Assembly: GCA_015492435.1 (NCBI GenBank)
Contig: WGFB01000014.1
Span: forward strand, 15,728-79,727
DNA length: 64,000 nucleotides
Direction: 5' to 3'
Source: Gammaproteobacteria bacterium
Lineage (GTDB): Bacteria; Pseudomonadota; Gammaproteobacteria; SZUA-140
In this document: positions 834-16,686 of the stretch, piece by piece
Position numbering within the stretch: position 1 is the first letter of the stretch
Layout: each line of letters begins with the position of its first letter
Position numbers and translations under genes: made by a program
The notes under the pieces: model-generated
What the model was told of the DNA's origin: nothing
The model's database searches: none
What the model saw: the letters and a program-made list of their open reading frames with translations, nothing else

Positions 834-909
834 TGCTCAGACTCCCTTGGGGTTGAATGCCGTAGAATATATCACACTGAAAGTGTGGTTTATATCCACA
901 ATGCGGACT

Positions 910-1845: not shown

Positions 1846-1860
1846 AGTTTCCTCGGCGGT

Positions 1861-1895
1861 TAACCCGCATTTCTCACCAATATGGCGGGCAATCA
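1861..1895. repeat. ~30-bp conserved hairpin motif, copy 1
   Basis: TAACCCGCATTTCTCACCAATATGGCGGGCAATC, immediately upstream of the sulfotransferase start. Confidence 0.5.
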
Positions 1896-2168
1896 GGGTT
1901 CCATGGCCTTTTCGACGGCATCAGCCGTTGAGATACGCGCGGGTCGGCAGGACAGGCCGGATTGTCTCCCACCGGCCGGCATCATGCAAGGTTCGCAGGC
2001 CGCGCGGAGGCCAAGTATAAAAGAAAACCGTGCCTTTCGTAAGAGCGTGCGCGCCGCTCCGCGCCTGGCGCACCGGCCTTGGGAGCCGCCAGAAATTGTC
2101 CTCCGCGAAACAAATTTGCTATGTTCTCGTCTTCAGTGCATCTCTGGGAACCCGCCCCCGCCAGGTTC

Positions 2169-3236
2169 ATGAATCCGACATCCCCCGAAAAGCTCATTGT
2201 GGCAGTGTGCACCTATCACCGCCCCCACGGTCTGCGCCTGCTCCTGCGGGCGCTTGAGGCGCAGCGCTTCGAACATAATCCAGCGCCTGATATGGAAGTC
2301 CTGGTGGTCGATAACGGGGGTGATGCCGAAACCCGGCGCCTGTGCCAGGACTTCGGAAGCGGGCAGGCACCACTCCCCCTGCGCTATATCCAAGAACCCC
2401 GCGTGGGCATATCCCACGCCCGCAACGCGGTGCTCGATCACATTCCCGCCCACTGCGACTACGTGGCCCTGATAGACGACGATGAGATTCCATGTCCGCG
2501 CTGGCTGGATGAATTGCTGGCGCTCCAGCGCGCGACGGGCGCCGATCTGGTGCGGGGACCGGTGATCCCCCGGTATGCGCCCGGCACGCCGGCCTGGATC
2601 ACGCGGGGAAATTATTTCGGCTGGCCCCGCCCCGAACAGCGCATCACGGACGGCCAGAACCTGGAGCAGGGGGCGACGAACAACATGTTGCTGCGCTGGT
2701 CCGCGGTGCGCGCCACCGGCGCGCGCTTCGACACCGGGCTTGCCCGTACCGGTGGCGAAGACACGGTCTATTTTCATCAGTTGATTCACGCGCACAAACT
2801 GAAAATGGTCTTTGCCGCCCGCGCCTGTGTCACCGAGACAATCCCCCCCACCCGCACATCCCTGCGCGCCTTGCTGAGGCTTCACTTCCGGCTGGGCGCG
2901 AACAGATTGTTGAAGAAAACACTGCGCGCTTCTCCCGGAGACAACAAGGTCATGCTGACGATCGTGCACGCCGGCAAGGGCGTACGGCACGTTCTCCTCG
3001 GCACCGCGGGCCTGTTCACATGCTGGCTCCCCGGGGGGGGCGGGCGGATGCGGGCCCTGGATTCACTGCTGCGCCTGGCGAGAGGCGCGGGACACTTCGC
3101 CGGCCTGCTTGGCCTGCGCTACCGCTATTACGGCGGCATCCCCCATAGCCTGGCAAGCGACGTTCATGCCCCGCCCGAGGAATGGGATACCCGCCGGGAA
3201 AAGTCCGCCTCGAAGCGCCGCAGGCGGTCACAATAG
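2169..3236 (+). CDS. Glycosyltransferase family 2
   Basis: IVAVCTYHRPHGLRLLLRALEAQ...VLVVDNGGDAE...ALIDDDEIP (DXD) is the GT-A fold signature. Start moved to the ATG at 2169 (MNPTSPEKLIVAV). Confidence 0.8.
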   Translation: MNPTSPEKLIVAVCTYHRPHGLRLLLRALEAQRFEHNPAPDMEVLVVDNGGDAETRRLCQDFGSGQAPLPLRYIQEPRVGISHARNAVLDHIPAHCDYVALIDDDEIPCPRWLDELLALQRATGADLVRGPVIPRYAPGTPAWITRGNYFGWPRPEQRITDGQNLEQGATNNMLLRWSAVRATGARFDTGLARTGGEDTVYFHQLIHAHKLKMVFAARACVTETIPPTRTSLRALLRLHFRLGANRLLKKTLRASPGDNKVMLTIVHAGKGVRHVLLGTAGLFTCWLPGGGGRMRALDSLLRLARGAGHFAGLLGLRYRYYGGIPHSLASDVHAPPEEWDTRREKSASKRRRRSQ

Positions 3237-4060
3237 CCGCGATCCCGCTTCGAAGCCCCCTTGGGATACCAGATCAGCCCTCCGCCGCCAAATCTCAGGT
3301 CCACGATACTGTCGTCGAGCGACATGAACTTCAGGCGGGGCGTCTTCCGGTTGAAGCGCAGGAAAAAGTCGTAGATGACCATCTGGTCGAGCTTCTCAAG
3401 CAGGTGGCCATGCGCCACGAAGCGCCCGATCTGCCCGCCGACGGCGCGCAGAAAGGCCATGGCCTGACGCGATGGGGAAATGTACAGCGTGCCCGCCAGC
3501 AGCTTCGTGTTCCCGCCATGTTTGTCAAAGCGCGCATAGAAAGCCAGATCCGCTGCCCCAACTTTGTCTTTCAGTTCCTCGATGGGACCCACCAGCAGCG
3601 CGTCGATATCCAGGCACAGGCAGGGCGCGCCCGCCCCTGCCGCGATCTCCGCAAAGCGCACAAAACGCACGGAATAGTAATACCGCCCGCGCCGCTCGTC
3701 ATCATGGCGGTCCAGATCGACATGCTCCCAGGTATGGGAGAAATGGGGCACCGCCCCGCCGGAGAGTTCCGCAAGCAGTTGCAATTGCGCCGGCGCGGGA
3801 TTGAACAGATGAATATGGATGCCCGAGCCAGGCGCATTGGCCAGCAAGGCGGCGATGAAGGCGCGCCCGTATCGCTCGAAATAGGCGGCGTCGGCCGCGG
3901 CAAAAAAAAGCAGAGGCGCGCCGATACCAGAAGGCATGTGGCCTTCCAGCGGGGGAAGCGCTGTCTCACGCCTGGCATCCTCCACCGCGGGCAACCACTT
4001 GTCCAACCACCGGTAGGAAAGACTGCCCCATGTCTTGCGCAGATATTTACCAAGCTTCAT
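3164..4060 (-). CDS. Hypothetical protein (possible DXD-containing transferase; CLCLDIDALLVGP)
   Basis: 298-aa ORF with coding-like composition and no recognisable family. It sits among glycosyltransferase genes. Its 3' end overlaps the GT2 3' end convergently by 73 nt. Confidence 0.45.
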   Translation of the reverse strand: MKLGKYLRKTWGSLSYRWLDKWLPAVEDARRETALPPLEGHMPSGIGAPLLFFAAADAAYFERYGRAFIAALLANAPGSGIHIHLFNPAPAQLQLLAELSGGAVPHFSHTWEHVDLDRHDDERRGRYYYSVRFVRFAEIAAGAGAPCLCLDIDALLVGPIEELKDKVGAADLAFYARFDKHGGNTKLLAGTLYISPSRQAMAFLRAVGGQIGRFVAHGHLLEKLDQMVIYDFFLRFNRKTPRLKFMSLDDSIVDLRFGGGGLIWYPKGASKRDRGYCDRLRRFEADFSRRVSHSSGGA

Positions 4061-4175
4061 GGGCTTCTTCCAGCGTGGTTGAAGGGCCGTTCACCGGGCA
4101 TGCGCGGGCACAAAGGGACACGGCATGGCGAGTGGCGGCGGGAACAGCGGCCCACAGGCGGCCACTCCGCCAGGT

Positions 4176-5066
4176 TTAAAATGACAGGGAATCTTCATCA
4201 CCGTGACGCGCCCGCGCCTCCATGACATCGATGTAATGCCATCCCTCGACCTCGATTCTGTCAGGAAGCCAAAGACGCGATGGCCATCCCAGGTGATACT
4301 TGGGAGCGATGATGGTCCTGCCGCTGACCTCGTTGAGCCACCCGCCCCACCAGGAGAAACTGCTGTTGGCGATGATATTATATTTGCAGCGCGTGAACAA
4401 AAACATGTCGACCACGCCGGGGTTTCCCCGCGTGACAACCTTGTTGCTGATACCGGAAAAGACCCGTGACGCAAACTCCACGTCATCACTGACAATGACA
4501 TGGAACAGATCGCCGGGAAGCCGGGAAAGCGCTTCCTTGTAATATGCCAGCGGCAATATCCAGCCTATGCCATCGCCCTTGCGGGCCATCTCCATATAAT
4601 CTCCCCGCCTGATATGGATGCAACACCGCCTGGAGCTGGGCGCGGGCCATTGCGCCTCTATCTCGCCGATCAGGCGCCTGTAGCGGGGGCGGGGAGTAAA
4701 CCATTGCAGGACCTGCCGCCTGTTTTCCGCGAAATAGAGAGGGGACTGGAAGAAGCCCCGCACGGTCACGCCGTCGCTGACATCGAAGAACCGGCTGTCG
4801 AAACACTCGTCGTGTATGCCTCGGCTGTAATGCTTTCTGCGCGGCCGGAACGTCTCTCCCCCCAAGGGATGGCGCAGGCGGTAACGCAGCCGGTTGGCGG
4901 CCAGGGACAAGGTTGTCTCGCCATCCAGCTCGAAATACCTGTGCAGGGAACCCTTGCGCCCCCCGCGGAAGCAGAACGCGTAGCCTTTTTGCCCGGCCAG
5001 TGTCTTGCAGGCCGCGTACTGGAACATATTGTTCCCGGTCTGGGCGATCAGCTTCAGCATGATCAT
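4176..5066 (-). CDS. Glycosyltransferase family 11 (alpha-1,2-fucosyltransferase-like)
   Basis: Motifs IHIRRGDY and NSSFSWWGGWL match GT11 motifs I and III (HxRRGD; SxFSWW). The N-terminal GNNMFQYA matches GNQMFQYA. Start probably the internal ATG (MIMLKLIA). Confidence 0.75.
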   Translation of the reverse strand: MIMLKLIAQTGNNMFQYAACKTLAGQKGYAFCFRGGRKGSLHRYFELDGETTLSLAANRLRYRLRHPLGGETFRPRRKHYSRGIHDECFDSRFFDVSDGVTVRGFFQSPLYFAENRRQVLQWFTPRPRYRRLIGEIEAQWPAPSSRRCCIHIRRGDYMEMARKGDGIGWILPLAYYKEALSRLPGDLFHVIVSDDVEFASRVFSGISNKVVTRGNPGVVDMFLFTRCKYNIIANSSFSWWGGWLNEVSGRTIIAPKYHLGWPSRLWLPDRIEVEGWHYIDVMEARARHGDEDSLSF

Positions 5067-5162
5067 GATGGCAGCCCCCGGCGGCGACATTGCAACAACG
5101 CGGGCAAGCCTATTCCATATCGGCAATCTGAACGCAGCGCTCCGCGGGACCTTTGCATGGAA

Positions 5163-6278
5163 TCAGTCCGTCTCTTCAAGCAGCGCCTTCAGGCGCGCCA
5201 CCACGCGCGGCAACTCATCCGCGGGCCTGTTTCCCGCGGGAAGGAAATCCTCTCCCAGGGATACCGCCAGCCCCCTGTCCAGCAATACCCGGTGCAAGGC
5301 GGTGAGATCGCGCGCATACCCCAGTATTCCCAGGCGGCGGAATAGCGCGCCCAGCGCCTCACCGAGGGCGCCGCCATTCCCGCCTCCCGCCAGCCTGGCC
5401 ACCCATTGTTGCAGGCGGCTCGCGGGATCTTCCCTGACGGGCAGAGGGAAAATCGCCAGCGGCCTGCCCAGGCGCGCCACTTCCACCATCATGGAAACGC
5501 TGTCGCCGGTCACGATGAAATAGTCGGCCAGGCCGAGCAGCGCACGGTAGGGATTGTCCTTGCCGTCCCTGCGCCACTGGTAGAAACGGGCGTTTCCCGG
5601 CAGCGCGTCCTGGACAGCCTTCACCACCGGCAGCGGCGTGCGCCTGCTGGTAGTGGCATAAAGCGTCCCCCCCGCCTTATCAGCAAGGGCGGAGGCCCTG
5701 CCCACCAGGTCCCGCGCCACGCTTGCATCGAACACAAAGGGCTTGGTGGCGCCGCCGATCATGAGCGCGAAAACGGGACGTTGCAAGGCGGCGAAACGTT
5801 CGCGCCAGGAAGCAGCCGCCTCGGCAATGGCACGCTCGTCCGGCCGCATGAGAGGCAGGTCGAGGCGCAGCACATTGGGCCTGTCGGGCAGATGATACTG
5901 AGATGGCGCGATGATCAGGGCGTAGTCATCCAGGCCCCGCTTGGGGCGTCCCACCAGCACGACCCGGCTCCGCCCTCCACTCTGTTTGCGTATCCACATG
6001 GCCACCATCGCGGAGCGGCGCCCGATGGTGAGGATGAGATCCGGCCATGGCGGCTGCAACGCGTCCGATTTTTGCCGGTCGATGTGATAGAGAGAGGCCT
6101 TGAAGGGAGGCTTGCCCAACACATATTGTTCCAGGGGATAGACACGCTTGGTCTCGCAGGGCAGCCCCAGGGCCTCGGCGATGATTTCCACCTGGGCATT
6201 GTCGCCCAGCTTGTCACTGAGCACCAGCCAGATGCGGGGCGCCTGGCGCGCGTTGTCGGGGACAAAGGGAGTGGACAT
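5163..6278 (-). CDS. ELM1/DUF1022 family protein (predicted GT-B-like transferase)
   Basis: 371 aa. PWPDLILTIGRRS...VVLVGRP...YALIIAPSQYHLP...FALMIGGATKPFVFD...NPYRALLGLADYFIVTGDSVSMMVEVARLGRPLAIF fits the mitochondrial-fission ELM1-like family seen in LPS-core clusters. Confidence 0.6.
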   Translation of the reverse strand: MSTPFVPDNARQAPRIWLVLSDKLGDNAQVEIIAEALGLPCETKRVYPLEQYVLGKPPFKASLYHIDRQKSDALQPPWPDLILTIGRRSAMVAMWIRKQSGGRSRVVLVGRPKRGLDDYALIIAPSQYHLPDRPNVLRLDLPLMRPDERAIAEAAASWRERFAALQRPVFALMIGGATKPFVFDASVARDLVGRASALADKAGGTLYATTSRRTPLPVVKAVQDALPGNARFYQWRRDGKDNPYRALLGLADYFIVTGDSVSMMVEVARLGRPLAIFPLPVREDPASRLQQWVARLAGGGNGGALGEALGALFRRLGILGYARDLTALHRVLLDRGLAVSLGEDFLPAGNRPADELPRVVARLKALLEETD

Positions 6279-6411
6279 GAAATTCGCCGGATTTCGGGTA
6301 CTCAGTATATCAGGACCAACACGGCGTGTTCCATCCTGAGAAATCGTTTTTCCATAGCGGGTACGGCCTTGCTAACATACGCAATACTATTCTGTCCTCC
6401 ACCGCCACAAC

Positions 6412-7536
6412 ATGAACGATTTGTCATCCTCCATCGGCGTCCCGGCCGACCCGCCAACCGTCTGGATCATCACCGGCTACCGCGCCGGGGAAGATACGCA
6501 GATTCTCGCCCTCGCCGAGGCCCTGCAATGGCCCTTCTCCACCAAGCGCCTCGTTTACCAGGCCCATGATTTCATACCCGGCCTGCTGCGCCTGGCCTCG
6601 CTGAAGGGCATCAATCTGGCCCGCTCCAGCCCCCTTGTCCCGCCCTGGCCGGACCTGGTCATCTCCGCGGGCATGCGCAATGAACCCGTATGCCGCTGGA
6701 TCAAGGCGCAATCCGGGGGGAGAACGCGCATTGTCCTGCTGGGCAGGCACTGGGCGCGGCTGGAGCACTTCGATCTCGTCATCACCACTCCCCAATACCG
6801 CCTCCCGCAAGATACAAAAATTCTGCACAATATCACGACCCTGCACCGGGTCAACGAAAACATGCTGCGGGAGGCCTGCACCCGGCATGCCGCCACCCTG
6901 GCCGGCTTGCCGCGCCCCCACATCGCGGTGATCATGGGCGGCAGCAGCGGTCCCTATACCCTTGGGCGGCGTGCCGCGCGGCGCCTGGCCCGCCAGGCCT
7001 GCGCAATGGCACGCGCCCAGGGAGGCGCCCTCCTCGTCACCAGCAGCTCGCGCACCCCCGCCGCCGCCATCGATGCCTTTTCCGCGGCCGCCGCATGCCC
7101 CATGCGCTTCTACCGGTGGAAACCGGCCGACAAGGCCAACCCCTATTACGCCTTCCTGGCCTCGGCCGACGCCATTATCGTCACGGGTGACAGCATCGCC
7201 ATGCTCTCGGAAGCCTGCGCCACGGGAAAACCCGTCTATATTTTCGACCTGGGAACGGGCAGGGAGGCCATGCGCCCCCTGCCAGCAGGCTCAAGGCACG
7301 CCCGCGGCAGCGCGGAGCGGAACGATTTCCGGCTGGGCGCGTTGCTCTACAAGCTGCTCATGCGCCACGGCCCGCAACGGCTGACACGCGACATCCGCCT
7401 GGTACACAGTCAATTGACCGCCTCGGGGCTGGCCACCTGGCTGGACGAAACATGCACGCCACCCTCCCCGGGCCAACGCCCCCCCGACAGCATCGAGCGC
7501 GCCGTGGCGCGGGTACGCTCAATGCTCGGCCGGTGA
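6412..7536 (+). CDS. ELM1/DUF1022 family protein (paralog of 5163..6278, divergently transcribed)
   Basis: 374 aa with the same motif series as its neighbour (PWPDLVISAGMRN...IVLLGRH...DLVITTPQYRLP...IAVIMGGSSGPY...NPYYAFLASADAIIVTGDSIAMLSEACATGKPVYIF). Confidence 0.6.
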   Translation: MNDLSSSIGVPADPPTVWIITGYRAGEDTQILALAEALQWPFSTKRLVYQAHDFIPGLLRLASLKGINLARSSPLVPPWPDLVISAGMRNEPVCRWIKAQSGGRTRIVLLGRHWARLEHFDLVITTPQYRLPQDTKILHNITTLHRVNENMLREACTRHAATLAGLPRPHIAVIMGGSSGPYTLGRRAARRLARQACAMARAQGGALLVTSSSRTPAAAIDAFSAAAACPMRFYRWKPADKANPYYAFLASADAIIVTGDSIAMLSEACATGKPVYIFDLGTGREAMRPLPAGSRHARGSAERNDFRLGALLYKLLMRHGPQRLTRDIRLVHSQLTASGLATWLDETCTPPSPGQRPPDSIERAVARVRSMLGR

Positions 7537-9255
7537 GCGCACCGGGATGAGCCGCTCGTCCTGCAGGCGGTAGACCCGGTCGGCGATGTCCACCAGCGCC
7601 GTCTGGTGCGAGATGGACAGAACCGTCAGCCGCCCCGCCAACTGTTTCAAGGTGTCGCAGATGGCGCCCTCGCTCTTGGGATCCAGGGCGCTTGTCGCTT
7701 CATCCAGGATCAGCAGCTCCGGCCGGTGCGCCAGCGCGCGCGCGATCATGATGCGCTGGCGCTGACCGCCGGAAAGGCTGGCGCCACGCTCCCCGACCAC
7801 GCTGTACATACCGTCACGCAAATCTGAAACGAACTCCCAGGCCCCGGCCGCCCGCAAGGCGTATTCCGCGTCCGCTTCATCCAGCCCGGGATCGCCCAGA
7901 GTGACATTGTGAAACACGTTGTCATGAAGGAGCAGGTTTTCCTGGGGCACATAGCCGATCTTTCTGCGCCACTGGCGCAGATCCATCTCTCTCAGATCCA
8001 CGCCATCTATGAGTATGGCGCCATGCTGGGGTTGCAGCAGGCCGGTGATGAGGTCGACAATGGTCGTCTTGCCGGCCCCGGAAGGACCCGTCAACGCCAC
8101 CAGGGAGCCCTTGGGTATCACCGCCGAGGCATCGCGCAGGACGACTTTCTCACCATAGGCAAAATCGACGCCCTGCAGGCGGATGTCCCGCTCAAATCTC
8201 GGCGGCAGCGTGCCCGTGGAGATCTCGCGGGTTTCCTGCGCCTCGCGAGTGGTCTGATCGATGGACCAGAAGGCGCTTTCCGCGGTCACCATCTTCTGAT
8301 ACCAGCGCTGTATCTTTCCCATTTGCGCCATGATGCGCCCCAGCAACAGGGCCAGCATGAGCATGGTGGAAGCCGGCACTTCCCACATCACCAGGGCCAC
8401 ATAAATTCCGATGGCTATGAATCCCACGAACATGGGTTCCTGGATGGCCTGCAGCACGGCCTTGCTGAAGACCTCCTTCTGCAGGGCACGATTGAGTTTC
8501 GATGTCTCGGCCGCCATCACTTCGTCGGCCAGGTCTTCCCTGCCCATGGCCTTGAGTGGCTTGACGGACTGCAGGGTGTCGGTAAGGCGGCCGAGGAGAG
8601 ACTTCAGCAGCTTGGTCTGGCGCTTGCCGGCGCGGCGCGACATTCTCACCAGGGCATACGTGACGACGAGCACCAGCAACCCCGCACCCAACGCGGCCAG
8701 GGTGGCTTGCCAGGAAATCAGCAGGGCCACGATGATATAGACGACCGCTTCGATACAGCGGGCGATCATGGTCGTGCCATAGATATAGGCCTCCGAAGCG
8801 CGCATGGCCTCGGTGGTCATGGCATTGGCCATGCGCCCCGCCGGCTGCCGGATGAAGTATTCCCAACGGGAGGCCAGCACGGCGCGCAGCAGGGACAGGC
8901 GCAGATCGGTGGTGACCTGCGCGGCGGTGTAGCCGATCTGCTTGCGCGCCGCCAGCAGGAGCAGATTCTTGACCACAATCCCCACCATCACGATGATCAG
9001 CAACACACCAATGGAGGGCGTCAGGCCGACGTCATGCAACACGCCGCGCACGATCTCCTCCAGTCCACTGCCATCCTGGCCGCCTCCATCCGTCCCCGGA
9101 ACTTTGTCCCCCTCCCCCTGATCCAGGGCCAGGCTGAGCAGGGGCAGCAAGGCGGAGAGGCTGATCCCCTCGGAAATACCCGCCAGCAACAGGGCGAGCA
9201 GCATCAGGACGGACTGCCAGGGATATACGCGGAAGAATTTCAGAAGTATATGCAT
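7519..9255 (-). CDS. ABC transporter permease/ATP-binding protein, MsbA-like lipid exporter
   Basis: 578 aa. N-terminal 6-TM domain followed by an NBD with Walker A GPSGAGKTT, signature LSGGQRQR and Walker B LILDEATSALD. Confidence 0.85.
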   Translation of the reverse strand: MHILLKFFRVYPWQSVLMLLALLLAGISEGISLSALLPLLSLALDQGEGDKVPGTDGGGQDGSGLEEIVRGVLHDVGLTPSIGVLLIIVMVGIVVKNLLLLAARKQIGYTAAQVTTDLRLSLLRAVLASRWEYFIRQPAGRMANAMTTEAMRASEAYIYGTTMIARCIEAVVYIIVALLISWQATLAALGAGLLVLVVTYALVRMSRRAGKRQTKLLKSLLGRLTDTLQSVKPLKAMGREDLADEVMAAETSKLNRALQKEVFSKAVLQAIQEPMFVGFIAIGIYVALVMWEVPASTMLMLALLLGRIMAQMGKIQRWYQKMVTAESAFWSIDQTTREAQETREISTGTLPPRFERDIRLQGVDFAYGEKVVLRDASAVIPKGSLVALTGPSGAGKTTIVDLITGLLQPQHGAILIDGVDLREMDLRQWRRKIGYVPQENLLLHDNVFHNVTLGDPGLDEADAEYALRAAGAWEFVSDLRDGMYSVVGERGASLSGGQRQRIMIARALAHRPELLILDEATSALDPKSEGAICDTLKQLAGRLTVLSISHQTALVDIADRVYRLQDERLIPVRSPAEH

Positions 9256-9299
9256 GAAAGAACCTGGCGTGGCTAAATGATATCAGCCTGTCGGGGCGT

Positions 9300-10502
9300 T
9301 CAATTTTCCAGGATTCTCCCGCTCAGGGCGCCAAAGGCATCGACGACGGCATCGATCTGGGCGGCGCTGTGGGCCGCGCTGAGGCTGCAACGCAACAGGC
9401 ATTCCGTGGTCGGCGAGGCGGGTGGCATCACCAGGTTCACATAGACCCCCTTGTCCAGAAGGTCATGCCAGACTTTCAGGGCGCTGTCCTTCGATCTGCC
9501 CAGGGTGACGGCAACGACCGGGCTGGATTCGGGTCCCATCCTGAAACCGAAGGCCTTGAGCCCCTGGTACAGGCGGTGAGCGTTGTCCCACAGGCGCTTG
9601 CGCAGCTCAGGACCCTGTTCCCGCAGGATACTCAGGGCGACGCGGGTGGAGGCAATGATGGAAGGCGACGAGGAGGCCGTAAAAATATAGGGACGCATGG
9701 CATAGCGTGCATGCTCCAGTTCCTGCCACCTGCTGACGCAGAACCCGCCGATGGCCCCCAGGCTCTTGCTGAAGGTGCCGACGATGAAATCCACGTCCTC
9801 CTCCACGCCCGCCTGCTCCACCAGTCCCCGCCCTCGCTCCCCCAGAACGCCCAGGGAATGGGCCTCGTCCACCATCAGATAGGCTCCGTGGCGGCGCTTG
9901 ACTTCCACGATCTCCTGGAGGGGCGCCTGATCGCCGATCATGCTGTAGATGCCTTCCACGACAACGAGGGCCGATTCCGCCTTGTCTCCCAGGCGCCTGA
10001 GACGCTTATCCAGATCGGCGGGGTCGTTGTGACGAAAGCGGATGACCTCCGCATTGCCGAGACGGCAGCCATCATAGATGCTGGCATGGCTGTCCGCGTC
10101 CAGGAGAATGGCGTCCGAGGCGCCTGGTATGGTGGACAGTATACCCAGGTTGGCGATGTAACCCGTCGAAAACACGATGGAGGCCGGCAGTCCGAAAAAC
10201 TCCGCCAGTTCCCTTTCCAGCGCCAAGTGGCCGGCATAGGTGCCATTGGCCATGCGGGATCCCGTGGTGCCGGTTCCCTCCTCTTCCAGCGCCTTCCTGC
10301 CCGCGGCGATGCAGCGTGGATCGAAGGTCAGCCCCAGGTAGTTGTTGGTGCCCGCCAGGATGGTGCGGCGGCCGTTGACAATGGCCTCCGTCTCCGAAAG
10401 CACCTGCTCGACGACGACGTTGAAGGGATTGGCATCCAGTCTTGCCACATCTTCTCGCAGGTTGGCATAGTACTGGAACTTATCAAAGATCGACCGTGTC
10501 AT
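9300..10502 (-). CDS. spt: Serine palmitoyltransferase (alpha-oxoamine synthase family)
   Basis: 400 aa and very close to Sphingomonas SPT: ILAGTNNYLGLTFDP...GSRMANGT...IVFSTGYIANLGILST...ILLDADSHASIYDGCRLGNAEVIRFRHND..DLDKRL...GTFSKSLG (the PLP lysine). Confidence 0.85.
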   Translation of the reverse strand: MTRSIFDKFQYYANLREDVARLDANPFNVVVEQVLSETEAIVNGRRTILAGTNNYLGLTFDPRCIAAGRKALEEEGTGTTGSRMANGTYAGHLALERELAEFFGLPASIVFSTGYIANLGILSTIPGASDAILLDADSHASIYDGCRLGNAEVIRFRHNDPADLDKRLRRLGDKAESALVVVEGIYSMIGDQAPLQEIVEVKRRHGAYLMVDEAHSLGVLGERGRGLVEQAGVEEDVDFIVGTFSKSLGAIGGFCVSRWQELEHARYAMRPYIFTASSSPSIIASTRVALSILREQGPELRKRLWDNAHRLYQGLKAFGFRMGPESSPVVAVTLGRSKDSALKVWHDLLDKGVYVNLVMPPASPTTECLLRCSLSAAHSAAQIDAVVDAFGALSGRILEN

Positions 10503-10753
10503 TCACTCAGTTCCTGGAGGCTGACCGCCAGGTCCCTGACCGTGTTGATATCGGGCAACCGATTGAGAGGTATGGAGATATCCAGATGATCCTCGATCTC
10601 CATGAGCAGTTCAAGCAACCTGACGGAATCAATATCGAGATCGGCGACAAGCTGGGTTTCTTCGTTCAGCCGCTGGTTGGCCTCGCTGGCAAAAGGCTTT
10701 AACACTTCATAGAGTGCGTCGAGTATTTCCTGATATTGTTTCATGTCGTTCAC
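10499..10753 (-). CDS. acp: Acyl carrier protein (sphingolipid-dedicated ACP)
   Basis: 84 aa, acidic. DLDIDSVRLLEL is a phosphopantetheine attachment motif. The gene overlaps the spt start by 4 nt. Confidence 0.8.
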   Translation of the reverse strand: MNDMKQYQEILDALYEVLKPFASEANQRLNEETQLVADLDIDSVRLLELLMEIEDHLDISIPLNRLPDINTVRDLAVSLQELSE

Positions 10754-10804
10754 GCATCCAGACTAATAGGGCTCAGCTTGTCCGATCCTGCCCTTAAAAA
10801 CAAG

Positions 10805-10963
10805 GGAAACTCTGATTAATTCTGGACCGGATGGATGGCGAGATGAAATGTTCCGGACCAAGGCGAAAAGCACAGGTAATAGCGCGCTATTGCCAAGATT
10901 TTCAACGCAGAGCCGGGACATTTCAGCCGCCAGACGCCGGTTTATGAATTGATCAGAGGTTCC
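10805..10963. mobile_element. 159-bp palindromic MITE (Correia-like), copy 1
   Basis: Terminal inverted repeats GGAA(A/C)CTCTGAT(T/C)AATTC ... GAATTGATCAGAGGTTCC. The internal arms and centre are near-identical to copies at 39421..39579 and 42132..42290. Confidence 0.75.
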
Positions 10964-11036
10964 CAAGCCATGATCAATTCAACCCGCGGGAAAGGCGGCA
11001 TTTTAGCGCGATTCCTTGCCGAATTCTAACCCGCCT

Positions 11037-11070
11037 TTCTCACCGGGATGGCGGGCTGACCTGAGCCTGC
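11037..11070. repeat. ~30-bp conserved hairpin motif AACCCGC(A/C)TTTCTCACC(R)GGATGGCGGG, copy 2
   Basis: Near-identical to 1861..1895 and 14364..14398. Stem CCCGCC/GGCGGG. Confidence 0.5.
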
Positions 11071-11112
11071 CTGCGCCGGCCCGTCATCCCGCGGTAATGG
11101 AGTGAACGCAGG

Positions 11113-12057
11113 CTACCGCGTCCCGTGGGAGGGATACAGGGTTTTTCTCAGCCCTTCCGAAAGTGAAATACGCGGCGCCCAGCCACAGGCATCCCGCCAG
11201 GGCGAGGTGTCATGGCATACCCAGTCTTCATGGAGCAATTCCCGCGCCTTGCCAGGGGTCAGCATGGGGGCGTATCCGGCCACGCGGGCCATCTGTCCAT
11301 TGAGCGCGGCGAGGCCACGCAGCGCCCAGGAGGGAAGATAGCATTTCCTCACCCTGGCACCACGGAGGCTGGCAACCGCTGCCACCACATCTTCCCAGCC
11401 ATAACCACCAGCCCGTCCGTCATCCAGTTCATAGACCCCGCTCCGGCCGGATGGCATCTCCAGGCCACATAGAATGGCCCGCACCAGATCATCGACATAG
11501 AGCAGGGAAAAACGCGCTTGCCTGGAGCCGGGAATAAGGGCCAGGCCACGGGCCATCCACTGGAACAAGGGCAGGAGTTCACGGTCGCCGGGACCGTAGA
11601 CCGCCGGCGGACGCAACGCCAGCCACTCCAGCTTCTCTCCCAGAGCGAGAAGGACTTCCTCTCCTCCGCGCTTGCTGGCGGCATAGTGGGACAAGGCGGG
11701 CTCGCGGGCCGCCAGGGAAGACAGCGCGATGAGGCGGGGCGGGCAGGGTTGCGCCAGCACGGCACTGGCCATTTTCCTCACACCTTCCACGTTGACGCGG
11801 TCGAACTGGGCCTGGGTACGGCCGCGCACGGCGCCGGCACAATGGATCACGGCCCTGACACCGCGCGTCAGGTGTTCGAGGCAGTCCTGATCGTCCAGGT
11901 CCCCGCTGATCCATGCGAGGCCCGGCCGGGCCGGTGATTCCAGGGGACGGACGGCCCGCCTGAGGGCGCGCACTTCCCAACCCTGGTCCAGCAACGCCTT
12001 GACCAGGGCGCGCCCGATGAATCCCGTCGCGCCGGTGACTGCTACGCTGCGGGACAC
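11113..12057 (-). CDS. cerR: NAD-dependent epimerase/dehydratase family reductase (bacterial 3-ketodihydrosphingosine/ceramide reductase CerR candidate)
   Basis: 314 aa. N-terminal Rossmann motif VTGATGFIGRALV. It sits between acp and the acyl-ACP synthetase, as in the Caulobacter ceramide cluster. Confidence 0.6.
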   Translation of the reverse strand: MSRSVAVTGATGFIGRALVKALLDQGWEVRALRRAVRPLESPARPGLAWISGDLDDQDCLEHLTRGVRAVIHCAGAVRGRTQAQFDRVNVEGVRKMASAVLAQPCPPRLIALSSLAAREPALSHYAASKRGGEEVLLALGEKLEWLALRPPAVYGPGDRELLPLFQWMARGLALIPGSRQARFSLLYVDDLVRAILCGLEMPSGRSGVYELDDGRAGGYGWEDVVAAVASLRGARVRKCYLPSWALRGLAALNGQMARVAGYAPMLTPGKARELLHEDWVCHDTSPWRDACGWAPRISLSEGLRKTLYPSHGTR

Positions 12058-12090
12058 GGGAGCACCCCTGTCAGGATACGGGGGATGGCC

Positions 12091-13896
12091 TTATTGATCT
12101 CCCGCTGCCGCGGTCTGCGTTTCCCAGTCGTGCGCCTCAATGAAATTCTGGCGCGCCTTGGACCGCGAGAGCTTGCCGGAGGAGGTGCGCGGCAGGGTAT
12201 GCAGGGGCACCAGCTCCACATAGCAGTCGATGCCCAGTTCGGAACGCACGCGCTGCTTGAGGCGGCTGACCAGGCAGGCCTGGACCGCGGGATCCTTCTT
12301 GCGGCACTGAACCACCATCACGGTGGTCTCCTTGCCGCCCGGACCGGGCGCCGAGAAGGCCAGGGCATCGCCCGTGCGCACTTCGGGCTGCTGCTCGGCC
12401 AGATACTCCAGATCCTGGGGCCAGATGTTGCGCCCGTTGATGATGATAAGGTCCTTCTCCCGGCCCGTGATCACGAGCTGGCCGTCGAGGCGGTATCCGA
12501 TATCACCCGTGTTCAGCCAGCCGTCCGCGGACAGGGTCCGGCGCGTGATCTCGGGCTCGTTGAAGTAGCCGGACATGACGCTGGGGCCACGCAAGTAGAT
12601 CGTGCCGCTGTGACGCTCTGGCAGGGCATTACCCTCCTGATCACGTATTTCCACTTCGAAACCCGGCAGCGGGGTTCCGCAGACAACGAAGGATCGGGTG
12701 CGGGGGGACAGATCTTCCTTGTTACCGCCCGGCACCTCACGTGCCTCGTGACACTTGGCCAGATGATCGGCGTCGATGCGATCCACCTGCAGGCCCGTGT
12801 TGAGGGGCGCGAAACTGATGGCCAGGGAACATTCGGCCATGCCGTAGCAGGCCAGGAAGGCCTTGGGATCGAAGCCGCTGGGTTCCAGCGCCTTTGCGAA
12901 TCTCAGCAGCGGCTCGGAGCGGATCATCTCCGCACCGACTCCGGCAATGCGCCATGCGCTGAGGTCCAGCTTGCTGGCCTCGCCCGCGCGTATGCAGCGC
13001 TCCACCAGTTCATAGCCGAAGGGCGGGCCGAAGGAAATGGTCGCCTTCGTTTTGCTCATCAGGGACAACCATTGACGCGGGCGCATGGCGAATTCGCGTG
13101 TGCCGAGATAGTCGACGGATACCTGAGAAGTGACGGGCACGAGCACCAGCCCCACGAATCCCATGTCGTGATAGAACGGCAGCCAGGACACGTAACGGTC
13201 TCCTGGAACCATTTTCAGGCCGTGCTTGATGATGCCCGCCAGATTGTCCAGCACTGTTTCCTGGGTGATCATGACGCCGCGCGGGAAGCGGGTACTGCCG
13301 GAGGTGTATTGTATGTAAGCCAGTTCGTCGGACTCCAGGGGACGCAGGGCCTGCTGGCTTTCGGGGAAGTTCTCGAAGTCCACCGGATCGCCGACGAAGG
13401 CCATGTCCAGGCCCTCGGCCGCTTCCTCCAGATAGGGCAGGAAACCCGCGGCGGAGACGCCTACCGAGGCATTGCAACTGGTCAGCATGGAACGCAGATG
13501 AGCGACGTAGGCCTCGTGTCCGCCCAGGCTGATGGGGATGGGGAGCGGCACGGGCACCAGGCCCGCGTACTGACATGCAAAGAAGAATCGCAGGAAGTCC
13601 GGATGCGTCTCGGCAATCAGCGCGACGCGCGCGCCGCGTTCCAGTTCCAGGCCGAGAAAACGGCGGGCCAGTATTCGTGCTTCCTGACGCAGCCTGGCAT
13701 AGGAGAGTACGGCATATACTTCGCCTCGCCCGGTATAGAAATTACAACCGGTTTCCCCTTGAGCCGCATAGTCCAGGGCTTCCGCAAGATTGGAAAAGTC
13801 GGCTGCACGGAATGGCAAAGTATTATGGGTAGGTGTCGTCTCCAGATCCAAATTAACCTCCTTAATACTTCTCCTGTTGGTTTCTGTCCCTAGCAT
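12091..13896 (-). CDS. Fatty acyl-AMP ligase / acyl-ACP synthetase
   Basis: 601 aa. AMP-binding motifs YTSGSTRFPRGV, YGMAE, TGDIG and the C-terminal SSGKLSR lysine motif. Good RBS (AAGGAGG) upstream. Confidence 0.8.
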   Translation of the reverse strand: MLGTETNRRSIKEVNLDLETTPTHNTLPFRAADFSNLAEALDYAAQGETGCNFYTGRGEVYAVLSYARLRQEARILARRFLGLELERGARVALIAETHPDFLRFFFACQYAGLVPVPLPIPISLGGHEAYVAHLRSMLTSCNASVGVSAAGFLPYLEEAAEGLDMAFVGDPVDFENFPESQQALRPLESDELAYIQYTSGSTRFPRGVMITQETVLDNLAGIIKHGLKMVPGDRYVSWLPFYHDMGFVGLVLVPVTSQVSVDYLGTREFAMRPRQWLSLMSKTKATISFGPPFGYELVERCIRAGEASKLDLSAWRIAGVGAEMIRSEPLLRFAKALEPSGFDPKAFLACYGMAECSLAISFAPLNTGLQVDRIDADHLAKCHEAREVPGGNKEDLSPRTRSFVVCGTPLPGFEVEIRDQEGNALPERHSGTIYLRGPSVMSGYFNEPEITRRTLSADGWLNTGDIGYRLDGQLVITGREKDLIIINGRNIWPQDLEYLAEQQPEVRTGDALAFSAPGPGGKETTVMVVQCRKKDPAVQACLVSRLKQRVRSELGIDCYVELVPLHTLPRTSSGKLSRSKARQNFIEAHDWETQTAAAGDQ

Positions 13897-14363
13897 GCGT
13901 CAAATTTTGCCAAATATACATTTAATAATCTGATATATCAAGCGGTTATTCAGTTCAATTTGGTGTCCGAATTTAGTATATGATCTGTTGTTTTTTTACA
14001 ACACTGCAAACACAAAAAAATACCGGCCTGGATGTCATGCCAGCGCCTGGTACCCGGCCCTTGCTTCGGGGCACATTCTTGCGCTTTTCAATCTAAAACG
14101 CAAATTAAATATAGTACATGTAAGGGTCCGTCCGCGTCTGACGACCCTGTCACGGAAATTCCCGCCATCACATCCGCCAGCATCCTTGATTTTCTTTCCC
14201 CGCACCCGGCACGCGCAACCCAGGACCGGATTGCTTCCACGGCTCGCCCACAGCCGCAGACTTCTAATGTAGAACGCTGACTTTCCTGGGAATGTTCCAT
14301 GCAGAAAAGGAGAATTCCTCAGACAAGCAAGAATCCCCCTATCGGCCCAAGGGCTTTCAACTG

Positions 14364-14398
14364 CAACCCGCATTTCTCACCAGGATGGCGGGATGACC
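14364..14398. repeat. ~30-bp conserved hairpin motif, copy 3
   Basis: AACCCGCATTTCTCACCAGGATGGCGGGATGACC, ~300 bp upstream of the bCerS candidate. Confidence 0.5.
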
Positions 14399-16679: not shown

Positions 16680-16686
16680 CGGACGT

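What the first reader, a model, noticed from the sequence alone, without database searches (positions are those of the whole stretch)
7519..9255. MsbA-like half-transporter placed between the glycosyltransferase block and spt: candidate sphingolipid flippase
This is a lipid-exporter-type ABC protein (6 TM plus an NBD). Its stop is 45 nt from the spt start, in the same orientation, so it is probably co-transcribed with the ceramide genes (transporter then spt, acp). An inner-membrane-synthesised ceramide derivative needs a flippase. The housekeeping msbA is normally elsewhere.
Basis: inference. Interest (0 to 1): 0.55.

Follow-up and report, generated by a model that had tools for sequence, protein, structure and literature searches.

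The report
Sphingolipid-locus ABC exporter, candidate flippase
A real ABC half-transporter sits directly after the serine palmitoyltransferase gene of a gammaproteobacterial ceramide operon, and its relatives elsewhere usually sit next to sphingolipid genes and to second copies of LptF/LptG, which makes it a good, apparently unreported candidate for the still-unidentified bacterial sphingolipid flippase.

Summary
The ORF at 7519..9255 is real. It encodes a 578-aa ABC half-transporter with six membrane helices and an intact ATPase domain. The gene is on the minus strand, so transcription runs FAAL, cerR, acp, spt, then ABC. The ABC start lies 44 nt after the spt stop.

It is MsbA-like in fold only (TM-score 0.84). 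It scores 255 bits on NCBI's MsbA model, whose cut-off is 602; E. coli MsbA scores 914. Its membrane domain is about 20% identical to MsbA.

It belongs to a large, distinct family with members 48-99% identical to it.
- Of 52 family loci of at least 6 kb, 34 carry ceramide-synthesis genes. None of 74 unrelated ABC-exporter loci carries spt.
- In 38 of 67 loci, the gene immediately upstream is an LptG-like gene preceded by an LptF-like gene. Both resemble the E. coli sphingolipid-locus paralogues LptF2/LptG2 more than canonical LptF/LptG.
- E. coli and Caulobacter sphingolipid loci carry a Wzx-like candidate flippase instead. No such gene was found in any family locus.

Best reading (about 0.6): an inner-membrane flippase for the locus's (glyco)sphingolipid. 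I could not test whether a canonical msbA exists elsewhere in this genome.

The parts
7519..9255 (-). ABC half-transporter gene (578 aa; TMD then NBD), the feature under study
   Evidence: ORF. Pfam PF00664 + PF00005. Identical protein on 7 public MAG/metagenome contigs. Family of hundreds of proteins at 56-89% identity. AF2 model with pLDDT 78.5.
8221..9255 (-). Transmembrane domain (residues 1-345): elbow helix 2-10 and six long TM helices (12-47, 82-128, 139-180, 182-229, 240-291, 295-341)
   Evidence: DSSP on the AF2 model. About 20% identical to the E. coli MsbA TMD. Used alone as a query, the TMD gets at most 34 bits against any solved structure.
9013..9117 (-). Extended periplasmic TM1-TM2 loop (residues 47-81): Gly/Asp-rich disordered stretch, then a short helix at 64-75 with conserved L73, G77 and P80
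   Evidence: AF2 secondary structure and pLDDT. A 31-residue insertion relative to E. coli MsbA. Conserved columns.
7522..8220 (-). Nucleotide-binding domain (residues 346-578) with Walker A GPSGAGKTT (390-398), Q438, signature LSGGQRQR (494-501), Walker B LLILDE (514-519) and H550
   Evidence: Pfam ABC_tran at 118 bits. These residues are invariant in 68 homologues. 39% identical to the MsbA NBD.
9256..9299 (-). 44-nt spt-ABC spacer with a weak AGG Shine-Dalgarno-like element
   Evidence: Sequence read. No promoter-like or terminator-like site here on the minus strand. Equivalent spacers of about 47, 52 and 88 nt in relatives L088-L090.
9300..10502 (-). spt, serine palmitoyltransferase
   Evidence: NCBIfam NF047599, 627.9 bits against cut-off 500.
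10499..10753 (-). Specialised acyl carrier protein (AcpR-type); its stop overlaps the spt start by 4 nt
   Evidence: PF00550. Called as 81 aa on public contigs. The role of AcpR comes from PMC9386255.
11113..12057 (-). NAD-dependent epimerase/dehydratase-family reductase (CerR / 'epi' type); no N-terminal signal peptide is visible
   Evidence: PF01370. Position in the operon as in E. coli and Caulobacter. Sequence.
12091..13896 (-). Fatty acyl-AMP ligase (AasR-type acyl-ACP synthetase), first gene of the minus-strand operon
   Evidence: NCBIfam NF006624, 788 bits against cut-off 600.
13913..13941 (-). Sigma-70-like promoter match (TTGATA-17-TATATT, 10 of 12) upstream of the FAAL start
   Evidence: This is a consensus match only.
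14704..15858 (+). bCerS-type N-acyltransferase (YghO / CC_1154 family), divergent from the spt operon
   Evidence: 50% identity over the full length to E. coli YghO. YghO is listed as the orthologue of CC_1154 in PMC9386255.
15855..16679 (+). NTP_transf_3 nucleotidyltransferase, placed after bCerS as CC_1153 is in Caulobacter
   Evidence: PF12804. Description of CC_1153 in the PMC11324152 supplement.
6412..7536 (+). ELM1-domain (PF06258) GT-B-fold protein, convergent with the ABC gene and overlapping it by 18 nt; the most constant neighbour of the ABC family
   Evidence: Pfam, 192 bits. A convergent ELM1 gene lies within 500 nt of the ABC stop in 38 of 55 loci. AF2 pLDDT 90; Foldseek hits to the MGD1 galactolipid synthase, MurG and UDP-GlcNAc 2-epimerases.
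5163..6278 (-). Second ELM1-domain GT-B-like gene
   Evidence: Pfam, 184 bits. Recurs in family loci.
4176..5126 (-). GT11 (fucosyltransferase-type) glycosyltransferase; the public call is 4176..5066
   Evidence: PF01531.
2079..3236 (+). GT2 glycosyltransferase; the public call is 2121..3236
   Evidence: PF00535.
910..1845 (-). Sulfotransferase (PF00685), recurrent in family loci

Best explanation
The gene encodes a homodimeric type IV (ABCB-like) ABC exporter. I propose that it is the inner-membrane flippase of the sphingolipid made by this locus.

Shown:
- The window encodes all five dihydroceramide genes (aasR/FAAL, cerR, acpR, spt, bCerS).
- It also encodes a block of soluble, cytoplasmic-type modifying enzymes: two ELM1-type GT-B proteins, GT11, GT2 and a sulfotransferase.
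- The ABC gene is the last cistron of the acp-spt unit.
- The protein has a complete ATPase domain and six TM helices.
- Its family is repeatedly encoded beside spt/bCerS and, in most relatives, directly after LptF2/LptG2-type genes.

Inferred:
- Ceramide is made and glycosylated or sulfated on the cytoplasmic leaflet.
- The ABC dimer uses ATP-driven alternating access to move the amphipathic product to the periplasmic leaflet, as MsbA does for core-lipid A and PglK does for lipid-linked oligosaccharide.
- An Lpt-type machine then extracts the product for the outer membrane. That machine would be LptF2/LptG2 where they are encoded next to the ABC gene, and possibly the housekeeping Lpt system in this organism.
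- The ABC gene fills the slot that a Wzx-like MOP protein (YghQ / CC_1166) occupies in the E. coli and Caulobacter sphingolipid loci.

Not resolved: which species is flipped. It could be the finished glycosphingolipid or an earlier ceramide or oxo-ceramide.
For: 1. Operon position. The spacer after spt is 44 nt with no promoter-like or terminator-like site. The spt>ABC adjacency is kept in relatives at 99, 88 and 72% identity and in a deltaproteobacterial MAG.
2. Family-wide linkage. 22 of 27 loci with enough flank carry spt. Of 52 loci of at least 6 kb, 34 carry a ceramide gene and 47 carry some marker of the locus. After de-replication at 80% identity, 19 of 29 clusters carry a ceramide gene. 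None of 74 loci of unrelated ABC exporters carries spt.
3. Lpt neighbours. In 38 of 67 loci the gene immediately upstream on the same strand is LptG-like, preceded by an LptF-like gene. These score higher to E. coli LptF2/LptG2 than to canonical LptF/LptG in 37 of 37 and 45 of 46 loci. LptF2/LptG2 are required for sphingolipid transport in Caulobacter (bioRxiv 10.64898/2026.04.12.717747).
4. More distant relatives. ABC proteins at 35-40% identity in two Alphaproteobacteria lie directly upstream of bCerS.
5. Complementary distribution. The E. coli spt locus has lptF2/lptG2 plus a Wzx-like gene and no ABC exporter. The 92 family loci searched and the window have no YghQ homologue. CC_1166 is reported absent from beta- and gammaproteobacteria.
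6. Not MsbA. 255 bits against a cut-off of 602, with E. coli MsbA as control at 914. No lpxK lies in any family locus.
7. Competent exporter. Catalytic motifs are intact and the fold is that of an exporter.
8. The constant neighbour has a GT-B fold, and lipid glycosyltransferases (MGD1, MurG) are among its top structural matches.
9. The literature states that the flippase is unidentified.
Against: - There is no experiment. All evidence is gene context in uncultured organisms, and many loci come from similar marine-sediment samples, so they are not independent.
- At 70% de-replication only 7 of 15 informative clusters show a ceramide gene within the flank.
- Some members sit elsewhere. A Nitrospirales member at 53% identity lies in a GT2/GT4/asparagine-synthase cluster of EPS type. 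In a 2.6-Mb gammaproteobacterial genome the gene is preceded only by sulfotransferases.
- The window itself has no LptF/LptG-like gene.
- I could not check whether this genome has a separate canonical MsbA.
- The most constant neighbour is a glycosyltransferase-like gene rather than spt, so the substrate could be defined by the glycan rather than by the ceramide.
Confidence: 0.6

Rival explanations
1. It flips or exports a non-sphingolipid glycoconjugate built by the adjacent glycosyltransferase and sulfotransferase block, for example an undecaprenyl-phosphate-linked oligosaccharide or an exopolysaccharide precursor. On this reading it sits by spt only because envelope genes cluster.
For: - The most constant neighbour is the ELM1-type GT-B gene (38 of 55 loci).
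- A Nitrospirales member at 53% identity lies among GT2, GT4 and asparagine-synthase genes with no ceramide gene within 10 kb.
- The best NCBIfam match is the HepA polysaccharide-export family.
- The predicted extra helix in the TM1-TM2 loop recalls the external helix of the oligosaccharide flippase PglK. The helix is; the PglK feature is from memory of Perez et al. 2015.
Against: - The gene is the last cistron of the acp-spt operon here and in a deltaproteobacterial MAG.
- Most relatives are co-directional with LptF2/LptG2-type genes, which handle outer-membrane glycolipids rather than undecaprenyl-linked glycans.
- No initiating phosphoglycosyl transferase, Wzy, Wzz or Wza-type gene appears among the Pfam-annotated neighbours.
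- The HepA score (300 bits against a cut-off of 725) is non-specific; E. coli MsbA itself scores 453 on that model.
Confidence: 0.17
2. It is the organism's housekeeping lipid A-core flippase, a divergent MsbA, and happens to be encoded next to spt.
For: - The top Foldseek hit is P. aeruginosa MsbA (TM-score 0.84).
- Some relatives are preceded by a Lip_A_acyltrans (LpxL-like) gene or by LptF/LptG genes that pass the LptF and LptG models.
- The window has no other ABC exporter, and the rest of the genome was not searched.
Against: - It scores 255 bits on TIGR02203 (cut-off 602) and 188 bits on NF008381 (cut-off 867), while E. coli MsbA scores 914 and 1208.
- TMD identity to MsbA is about 20%, and the TMD alone gets only 32 bits against PaMsbA.
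- PglK, Sav1866 and TmrAB match about as well.
- In a MAFFT alignment the E. coli MsbA lipid A-contact residues R78, R148 and K299 fall on A, Y and A that are invariant or nearly so (67-68 of 68) in the family (low-confidence alignment; the identity of the contact residues is recalled from the literature).
- No lpxK lies next to any family member.
- The LpxL-like gene is itself part of a sphingolipid locus in cultured Oceanibacterium hippocampi, next to bCerS, LptF/LptG and a DAGK_cat-domain lipid kinase gene.
- The adjacent LptF/LptG genes are of the F2/G2 type.
Confidence: 0.07
3. It is a generic efflux pump for drugs, peptides or a small metabolite, with no role in envelope lipid transport. 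Its position in the operon would be incidental.
For: Type IV ABC half-transporters are very often multidrug or peptide exporters. Sav1866 and TmrAB are among the best structural and sequence matches.
Against: Linkage to sphingolipid, Lpt-type and glycosyltransferase genes is conserved across Gamma-, Delta- and Alphaproteobacteria in at least three different gene arrangements. None of 74 unrelated ABC-exporter loci carries spt. There is no peptidase domain, no precursor peptide and no regulator of efflux type nearby.
Confidence: 0.05

Closest known systems
MsbA (lipid A-core flippase; TIGR02203 / NF008381)
   Same: Same architecture (TMD of six helices, then NBD; a homodimeric half-transporter). 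Same fold (Foldseek TM-score 0.84 to PaMsbA 9bd6). Proposed analogous job: flip an outer-membrane glycolipid across the inner membrane ahead of an LptFG-type extractor.
   Different: 27% identity overall and about 20% in the TMD. Far below the curated cut-offs. A 31-residue insertion in the TM1-TM2 loop. The basic lipid A-contact residues are not conserved in the alignment. Never next to lpxK. Encoded in sphingolipid loci instead.
PglK (Campylobacter lipid-linked oligosaccharide flippase; NF050066)
   Same: Best-matching half-transporter by sequence in the PDB (195 bits). Foldseek TM-score 0.81. Both would flip a glycolipid whose head group is assembled in the cytoplasm. Both have an extra helix in the periplasmic TM1-TM2 loop: predicted here, recalled from the literature for PglK.
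   Different: 215 bits against a cut-off of 1000. No pgl genes nearby. The lipid carrier would be ceramide rather than undecaprenyl pyrophosphate.
LptF2/LptG2 sphingolipid transport proteins of Caulobacter (CCNA_01214/01213) and their E. coli counterparts
   Same: Encoded in the same kind of locus. In most relatives the ABC gene is the third gene of an lptF2-lptG2-ABC unit, which suggests one pathway.
   Different: A different protein family and a different step: extraction from the outer leaflet of the inner membrane rather than flipping. LptF2/LptG2 have no ATPase of their own and use LptB. The window carries no lptF2/lptG2.
CC_1166 / YghQ, Wzx-like (MOP superfamily) candidate sphingolipid flippase
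   Same: Occupies the equivalent position in the sphingolipid loci of Caulobacter and E. coli, and is proposed for the same step.
   Different: Unrelated fold and energy source (MOP antiporter-type versus ATP-driven ABC). No homologue was found in the ABC-family loci. It has not been demonstrated experimentally either.
Eukaryotic ABCB lipid translocators (ABCB1, ABCB4)
   Same: Highest phmmer scores in the PDB (about 270-304 bits summed over two halves). ABCB4 is deposited as a phosphatidylcholine translocator. That ABCB1 moves glucosylceramide is my recollection of the literature.
   Different: They are full-length fused transporters. The similarity is general for the ABCB class and gives no evidence of shared substrate specificity.

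Membership tests
Type IV (ABCB-like) ABC exporter, half-transporter | N-terminal transmembrane domain of six long helices (PF00664) that extend into the cytoplasm, with coupling helices | tested here: met
   PF00664 at 70.7 bits. The AF2 model has helices 12-47, 82-128, 139-180, 182-229, 240-291 and 295-341, plus short helices at 131-136 and 231-236.
Type IV (ABCB-like) ABC exporter, half-transporter | C-terminal NBD with Walker A, Q-loop, LSGGQ signature, Walker B with catalytic Glu, and H-loop | tested here: met
   PF00005 at 118 bits. G390-T398, Q438, S495-Q498, D518-E519 and H550 are invariant in 68 homologues.
Type IV (ABCB-like) ABC exporter, half-transporter | Overall fold superposes on solved exporters | tested here: met
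   Foldseek TM-scores: 0.84 to PaMsbA, 0.81 to PglK, 0.78-0.81 to TmrAB, 0.77 to Sav1866.
MsbA (lipid A-core flippase) | Score at or above the curated cut-off of the equivalog models TIGR02203 (602) or NF008381 (867) | tested here: not met
   254.9 and 187.9 bits. The positive control, E. coli MsbA, scores 913.8 and 1207.6 bits; four other family members score 239-260 bits.
MsbA (lipid A-core flippase) | Basic residues that contact the lipid A phosphates (E. coli R78, R148, K299; recalled from the literature) | tested here: inconclusive
   In a MAFFT alignment they fall on A103 (67 of 68), Y173 and A339 (both invariant). At about 20% TMD identity the alignment is not reliable.
MsbA (lipid A-core flippase) | Genomic association with lipid A or Kdo genes (msbA-lpxK in many Proteobacteria) | tested here: not met
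   No E. coli LpxK homologue at E <= 1e-5 in the 92 family loci searched or in the window. The neighbours are spt, acp, ELM1 and LptF2/LptG2-like genes.
MsbA (lipid A-core flippase) | Sole and essential MsbA-type gene of the genome | not testable with these tools
   Only 64 kb of the genome, plus flanks of public contigs, could be read. There is no second ABC exporter in the window.
PglK-type lipid-linked oligosaccharide flippase | Score at or above the cut-off of NF050066 (1000), and location in a pgl N-glycosylation cluster | tested here: not met
   214.7 bits. No pgl-type genes among the neighbours.
PglK-type lipid-linked oligosaccharide flippase | External helix between TM1 and TM2 on the periplasmic side | tested here: inconclusive
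   A helix at residues 64-75 is predicted in a 35-residue loop with partly conserved positions. pLDDT there is only about 54-72, and no direct superposition on the PglK helix was made.
HepA-family heterocyst polysaccharide ABC exporter (NF045513) | Score at or above the cut-off of 725 | tested here: not met
   299.5 bits. E. coli MsbA scores 453 on the same model, so the match is non-specific.
Dedicated bacterial sphingolipid export machinery (as defined for LptF2/LptG2 in Caulobacter) | Encoded within the sphingolipid biosynthesis locus | tested here: met
   Last gene of the acp-spt operon. All five dihydroceramide genes lie within 6.6 kb.
Dedicated bacterial sphingolipid export machinery (as defined for LptF2/LptG2 in Caulobacter) | Linkage conserved across sphingolipid-gene-carrying taxa | tested here: met
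   34 of 52 loci of at least 6 kb carry a ceramide gene, and 38 of 67 have LptG2-like directly upstream. 19 of 29 clusters at 80% de-replication carry a ceramide gene, and 7 of 15 at 70%. Control: 0 of 74.
Dedicated bacterial sphingolipid export machinery (as defined for LptF2/LptG2 in Caulobacter) | Deletion tolerated only when spt is absent; sphingolipid accumulates in the inner membrane | not testable with these tools
   This needs genetics in a cultured carrier. No isolate encoding the ABC was found here; the nearest leads are relatives of the Porticoccaceae and Halieaceae MAGs.

The most novel reading that the evidence does not exclude
This ABC family is the missing inner-membrane flippase of a complete, dedicated sphingolipid export route in many marine Gamma- and Deltaproteobacteria. 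In this route the ABC protein flips the lipid and LptF2/LptG2 extract it, encoded as one lptF2-lptG2-ABC unit beside spt. The route mirrors MsbA followed by LptB2FG for LPS. In E. coli and Caulobacter the ABC protein would be replaced non-orthologously by a Wzx-like protein. The substrate would be a glycosylated, possibly sulfated ceramide made by ELM1-type GT-B enzymes, a lipid class not yet described in these bacteria.
Probability: 0.5. Interest if true: 0.72.

Novelty: new variant of a known kind. Interest (0 to 1): 0.6.

Why it matters
[quoted passage not shown] A 2024 paper says no flippase has been identified. An April 2026 preprint calls the route 'a mystery' and identifies only the LptF2/LptG2 step. 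The only flippase candidate published so far is a Wzx-like gene that beta- and gammaproteobacteria lack.

A conserved ABC exporter encoded in spt operons and right after lptF2-lptG2 gives a concrete candidate for that step that can be tested genetically and biochemically. It also suggests that the flip step, like O-antigen export, comes in both a Wzx-type and an ABC-type version. Finally, it draws attention to a widespread, uncharacterised locus type that probably makes decorated sphingolipids in marine bacteria. That locus carries ELM1-type GT-B genes, sulfotransferases, an LpxL-like acyltransferase and an unknown protein of about 300 aa.

Tried and rejected
1. The genome-contig scan with the full-length alignment was largely wasted. 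The tool chose NBD motifs, so only 6 of 80 loci were true relatives. The other 74 served as a negative control. I repeated the scan on metagenome contigs with a TMD-only alignment, which returned 80 true relatives.
2. Looking for a second msbA. tblastn of the ABC protein against the window found no paralogue. The rest of the genome is out of reach, and neither the 2.6-Mb contig CP070821.1 nor the other long contigs could be scanned beyond 10-kb flanks.
3. The look-up of the 1262-aa YhdP protein, meant to annotate the far half of the window, found nothing. I used Pfam instead.
4. I considered that the loci with an LpxL-like or LptF/LptG gene upstream (L127, L144) point to LPS. I rejected this for three reasons. 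The LptF/LptG genes are of the F2/G2 type. The LpxL-like gene scores below every lipid A acyltransferase cut-off. The same gene sits inside a sphingolipid locus in Oceanibacterium.
5. I considered that the NBD of this protein might power LptF2/LptG2, since those loci have no lptB. I rejected this because the protein has its own full TMD, and Caulobacter LptF2/LptG2 use the housekeeping LptB.
6. Rfam scan of 1..20000: nothing.
7. PDB sequence searches with the ELM1-domain protein and with the unknown 300-aa protein: nothing significant.
8. A DNA search of E. coli genomes found no ABC homologue, but it did locate the E. coli spt locus, which I used for comparison.

Full report
**What is in the sequence**

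The ORF 7519..9255 exists, but it is on the minus strand. It starts with ATG at 9255 and stops with TGA at 7521..7519. It encodes 578 aa.

The neighbouring genes on the same strand, in order of transcription, are:
- a fatty acyl-AMP ligase at 12091..13896 (NF006624, 788 bits, cut-off 600);
- an NAD-dependent epimerase-family reductase at 11113..12057;
- an acyl carrier protein at 10499..10753;
- spt at 9300..10502 (NF047599, 628 bits, cut-off 500);
- the ABC gene.

The spt stop is 44 nt upstream of the ABC start, and the transporter is the last cistron. Its 3' end overlaps the convergent ELM1-domain gene 6412..7536 by 18 nt.

A sigma-70-like match lies upstream of the ligase gene (13941..13913). 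No promoter-like or terminator-like site lies in the spt-ABC spacer. These are pattern matches only. Rfam finds nothing in 1..20000.

**The locus**

Divergent from this operon is a 384-aa protein at 14704..15858. It is 50% identical over its full length to E. coli YghO. PMC9386255 lists YghO as the orthologue of Caulobacter CC_1154, the ceramide synthase bCerS. All five dihydroceramide genes are therefore present within 6.6 kb.

After bCerS comes an NTP_transf_3 gene, as CC_1153 does in Caulobacter. On the other side of the ABC gene lie two ELM1-domain genes, a GT11, an unknown 298-aa gene, a GT2, a sulfotransferase and an unknown gene of about 300 aa.

The rest of the window (18-64 kb) holds housekeeping genes: trpE, his and tat genes, an alternative-complex-III-like cluster, murA-type EPSP-family, yhdP, rng, leuS and lnt. 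It has no second ABC exporter and no LptF/LptG-like gene. An identical protein is deposited from a 'Chromatiales bacterium' MAG.

**What the protein is**

Pfam finds ABC_membrane and ABC_tran. All catalytic NBD motifs are invariant in 68 homologues.

An AlphaFold model built on that alignment (pLDDT 78.5) shows an elbow helix and six long TM helices. It also shows two short helices at 131-136 and 231-236, where coupling helices would be expected. The periplasmic TM1-TM2 loop is unusually long and contains a short helix at residues 64-75.

Foldseek against the PDB gives P. aeruginosa MsbA first (TM-score 0.84). TmrAB, PglK (0.81), TM287/288 and Sav1866 follow with nearly the same E-values and 21-26% identity.

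By sequence, the best half-transporters are PglK (195 bits), Sav1866 (185), PaMsbA (180) and HlyB (171). With the TMD alone, nothing in the PDB exceeds 34 bits.

Identity to E. coli MsbA is 27% overall, about 20% in the TMD and 39% in the NBD. The protein has a 31-residue insertion in the TM1-TM2 loop relative to MsbA.

On NCBI's MsbA equivalog models it scores 255 bits (cut-off 602) and 188 bits (cut-off 867). E. coli MsbA scores 914 and 1208 as a control.

It passes no curated family cut-off. The top hit, HepA, is non-specific because MsbA itself scores higher on that model. So 'MsbA-like' is correct for architecture and fold, but the protein is not an MsbA by the curated models, which are the membership criterion I could test.

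**The family and its neighbours**

The protein belongs to a large family. Hundreds of proteins score about 700 bits at 56-62% identity. They come from Gammaproteobacteria, Thiogranum, Tectomicrobia and other MAGs.

A first genome scan was dominated by generic NBD motifs. It gave only six true relatives, plus 74 unrelated ABC-exporter loci that served as a control. A second scan of metagenome contigs used a TMD-only alignment and returned 80 true relatives at 48-99% identity.

tblastn with the window's proteins against these loci gave the following.
- 22 of 27 loci with at least 3 kb downstream and 1.5 kb upstream carry spt.
- Of 52 loci of at least 6 kb, 34 carry a ceramide-synthesis gene, 32 carry LptF/LptG-like genes and 47 carry at least one marker of the locus.
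- None of the 74 control loci carries spt.

The samples are not independent. After single-linkage de-replication of the ABC sequences at 80% identity, 19 of 29 informative clusters keep a ceramide gene. At 70% identity the figure is 7 of 15.

**Three arrangements**

(i) The window, its relatives at 99, 88 and 72% identity, and a deltaproteobacterial MAG have FAAL-cerR-acp-spt-ABC.

(ii) The dominant arrangement is LptF-like, LptG-like and ABC on one strand with short spacers. A convergent ELM1-domain gene follows, then acp-spt, with bCerS and NTP_transf_3 a few kb further on. LptG-like is the gene immediately upstream in 38 of 67 loci with enough upstream sequence. A Halieaceae MAG and a Porticoccaceae MAG on a 686-kb contig show the same arrangement.

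(iii) More distant ABC relatives (35-40% identity) in two Alphaproteobacteria lie directly upstream of bCerS.

The LptF/LptG-like proteins pass the LptF and LptG models narrowly. They score higher to the E. coli sphingolipid-locus paralogues than to canonical E. coli LptF and LptG in 37 of 37 and 45 of 46 loci.

**Exceptions**

Four loci have NeuB on the opposite strand, then an LpxL-like gene followed by ABC. One has LpxL-like, LptF, LptG and ABC without spt in the flank.

These do not point to lipid A, for three reasons.
- The LpxL-like protein is below every lipid A acyltransferase cut-off.
- One such locus has spt, FAAL and cerR within 10 kb.
- In the cultured alphaproteobacterium Oceanibacterium hippocampi the same gene sits among bCerS, NTP_transf_3, LptF/LptG, a DAGK_cat-domain lipid kinase, a sulfotransferase and two ELM1 genes.

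A Nitrospirales member at 53% identity lies in a GT2/GT4/asparagine-synthase cluster. Two members on long contigs are next to sulfotransferases or to an NTP_transferase gene with the same Pfam domains as CC_1152 (PF00483, PF01128, PF12804), with no spt within 10 kb.

No family locus has an lpxK homologue.

**Comparison with what is known**

The literature held here says that no sphingolipid flippase has been identified. It also says that transport 'remains a mystery' apart from LptF2/LptG2, which are needed in Caulobacter only when spt is present and which bind the housekeeping LptB. A Wzx-like protein, CC_1166, has been proposed as the flippase from co-fitness data, and it is reported absent from beta- and gammaproteobacteria.

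The E. coli spt locus (strain ETEC6) reads as follows: yghO; FAAL, epimerase, ACP and spt; then, convergently, lptG, lptF, a YtfJ-family gene, a hypothetical gene and a Wzx-like 'lipopolysaccharide biosynthesis protein'. It has no ABC exporter. Conversely, no family locus has a homologue of that Wzx-like protein.

The ABC exporter and the Wzx-like protein thus occupy the same place in otherwise similar loci. This recalls the Wzx-dependent and ABC-dependent versions of O-antigen export (my knowledge of the field).

Searches of the paper library for sphingolipid together with MsbA, ABC transporter, flippase, or LptF/LptG found no paper that describes this ABC family.

**How it most likely works**

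Shown:
- a complete ATPase domain and an exporter fold;
- membership of the spt operon;
- conserved linkage to ceramide genes and to LptF2/LptG2-type genes;
- the constant neighbour, the ELM1-domain protein, has a GT-B fold (pLDDT 90), and lipid glycosyltransferases (MGD1, MurG) are among its best structural matches, alongside UDP-GlcNAc 2-epimerases.

Inferred:
- Ceramide is made and decorated at the cytoplasmic leaflet by soluble nucleotide-sugar- and PAPS-dependent enzymes.
- The ABC homodimer flips the product.
- An Lpt-type machine carries it to the outer membrane.

Whether the flipped species is the finished glycolipid or an earlier ceramide is open. The Caulobacter model places CerR in the periplasm, which would require flipping of oxo-ceramide. 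The CerR here starts directly with its Rossmann motif and shows no signal peptide.

The long TM1-TM2 loop with a helix is a family-specific feature. It recalls the external helix of PglK. That is a lead from memory and was not tested.

**Rivals**

- Export of a non-sphingolipid glycoconjugate made by the glycosyltransferase block (about 0.17). The Nitrospirales context supports it. The operon position and the Lpt neighbours argue against it.
- A divergent housekeeping MsbA (about 0.07). The HMM scores, the TMD divergence, the absence of lpxK and the F2/G2 type of the adjacent Lpt genes argue against it. It is not excluded, because the rest of the genome could not be searched.
- A generic efflux pump (about 0.05).

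**Verdict**

It remains an inference from gene context in uncultured bacteria. It is a new variant of a known kind, an ABC lipid flippase applied to bacterial sphingolipids. I rate its interest as moderate to high because it makes an open question directly testable.

Noticed in passing
window 3..836 (-), cut by the window start; L001 18423..19331 and 19365..20285: A protein family of about 300 aa with no Pfam, NCBIfam or PDB sequence match recurs, often duplicated, in most loci of the ABC family. It also occurs in the sphingolipid locus of cultured Oceanibacterium hippocampi (L173 6916..7818 and 11155..12057), at 60-79% identity. It is highly conserved and its function is unknown.
   Followed up: partly
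window 6412..7536 (+) and 5163..6278 (-); a third copy at L001 20339..21433: 'Mitochondrial fission ELM1' domain proteins (PF06258) occur in two or three copies per locus. One is the most constant neighbour of the ABC gene and is convergent with it. The AF2 model (pLDDT 90) has a GT-B fold; its best structural matches are UDP-GlcNAc 2-epimerases and the lipid glycosyltransferases MGD1 and MurG. They may be ceramide glycosyltransferases.
   Followed up: partly
L092-L095, L101, L105, L126, L128, L134, L148-L160, L167, L008, L174 (e.g. L134 7792..11743): In most relatives the ABC gene is the third gene of an LptF-like, LptG-like, ABC unit beside acp-spt. In L174 the LptF and LptG parts are called as one 712-aa product, which could be a fusion or a gene-calling artefact. 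The window's lineage has lost or moved these genes.
   Followed up: yes
window 910..1845 (-); L174 15144..16070 and 18675..20198; L171 8764..9940: PAPS-type sulfotransferase genes (PF00685) recur in these loci, up to four per locus. This suggests that the final lipid is sulfated. I know of no description of sulfated sphingolipids in Proteobacteria.
   Followed up: no
L127 9054..10010; L144 1677..2615; L146 8854..9750; L173 8974..9897: A divergent Lip_A_acyltrans (LpxL-like) gene, below all curated lipid A acyltransferase cut-offs, sits directly upstream of the ABC gene or of LptF in some loci. It also lies inside the Oceanibacterium sphingolipid locus. A NeuB-family gene accompanies it in several loci, including the spt-linked L012. 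This may indicate extra acylation and a nonulosonic-acid head group.
   Followed up: partly
L168 (E. coli ETEC6, NZ_CP041627.1 3295620..3306178): Many E. coli genomes carry an annotated spt locus between glcC/yghO and pitB, with second copies of lptF and lptG and a Wzx-like gene. In this strain the fatty acyl-AMP ligase is a pseudogene with an internal stop.
   Followed up: partly
window 10754..11112: An intergenic gap of about 360 nt lies between cerR and acp inside an otherwise tight operon. It has no Rfam match and no promoter-like site on the minus strand. An internal promoter or a regulatory element is possible.
   Followed up: partly
window 16687..17709 (+) and 3164..4060 (-): Two more conserved genes of the locus (340/329 aa and 298 aa) have no Pfam or NCBIfam match.
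   Followed up: no
window 42458..46246 (-): A full-length YhdP (AsmA-like) gene lies 33 kb from the locus. It looks like a housekeeping gene, and no link to the sphingolipid genes was seen.
   Followed up: no
window 20991..27697 (-): A cluster resembling alternative complex III: a molybdopterin subunit, a 4Fe-4S subunit, NrfD, ActD, a cytochrome c and an unknown 346-aa gene. It lies between the sphingolipid locus and the tat and his genes.
   Followed up: no
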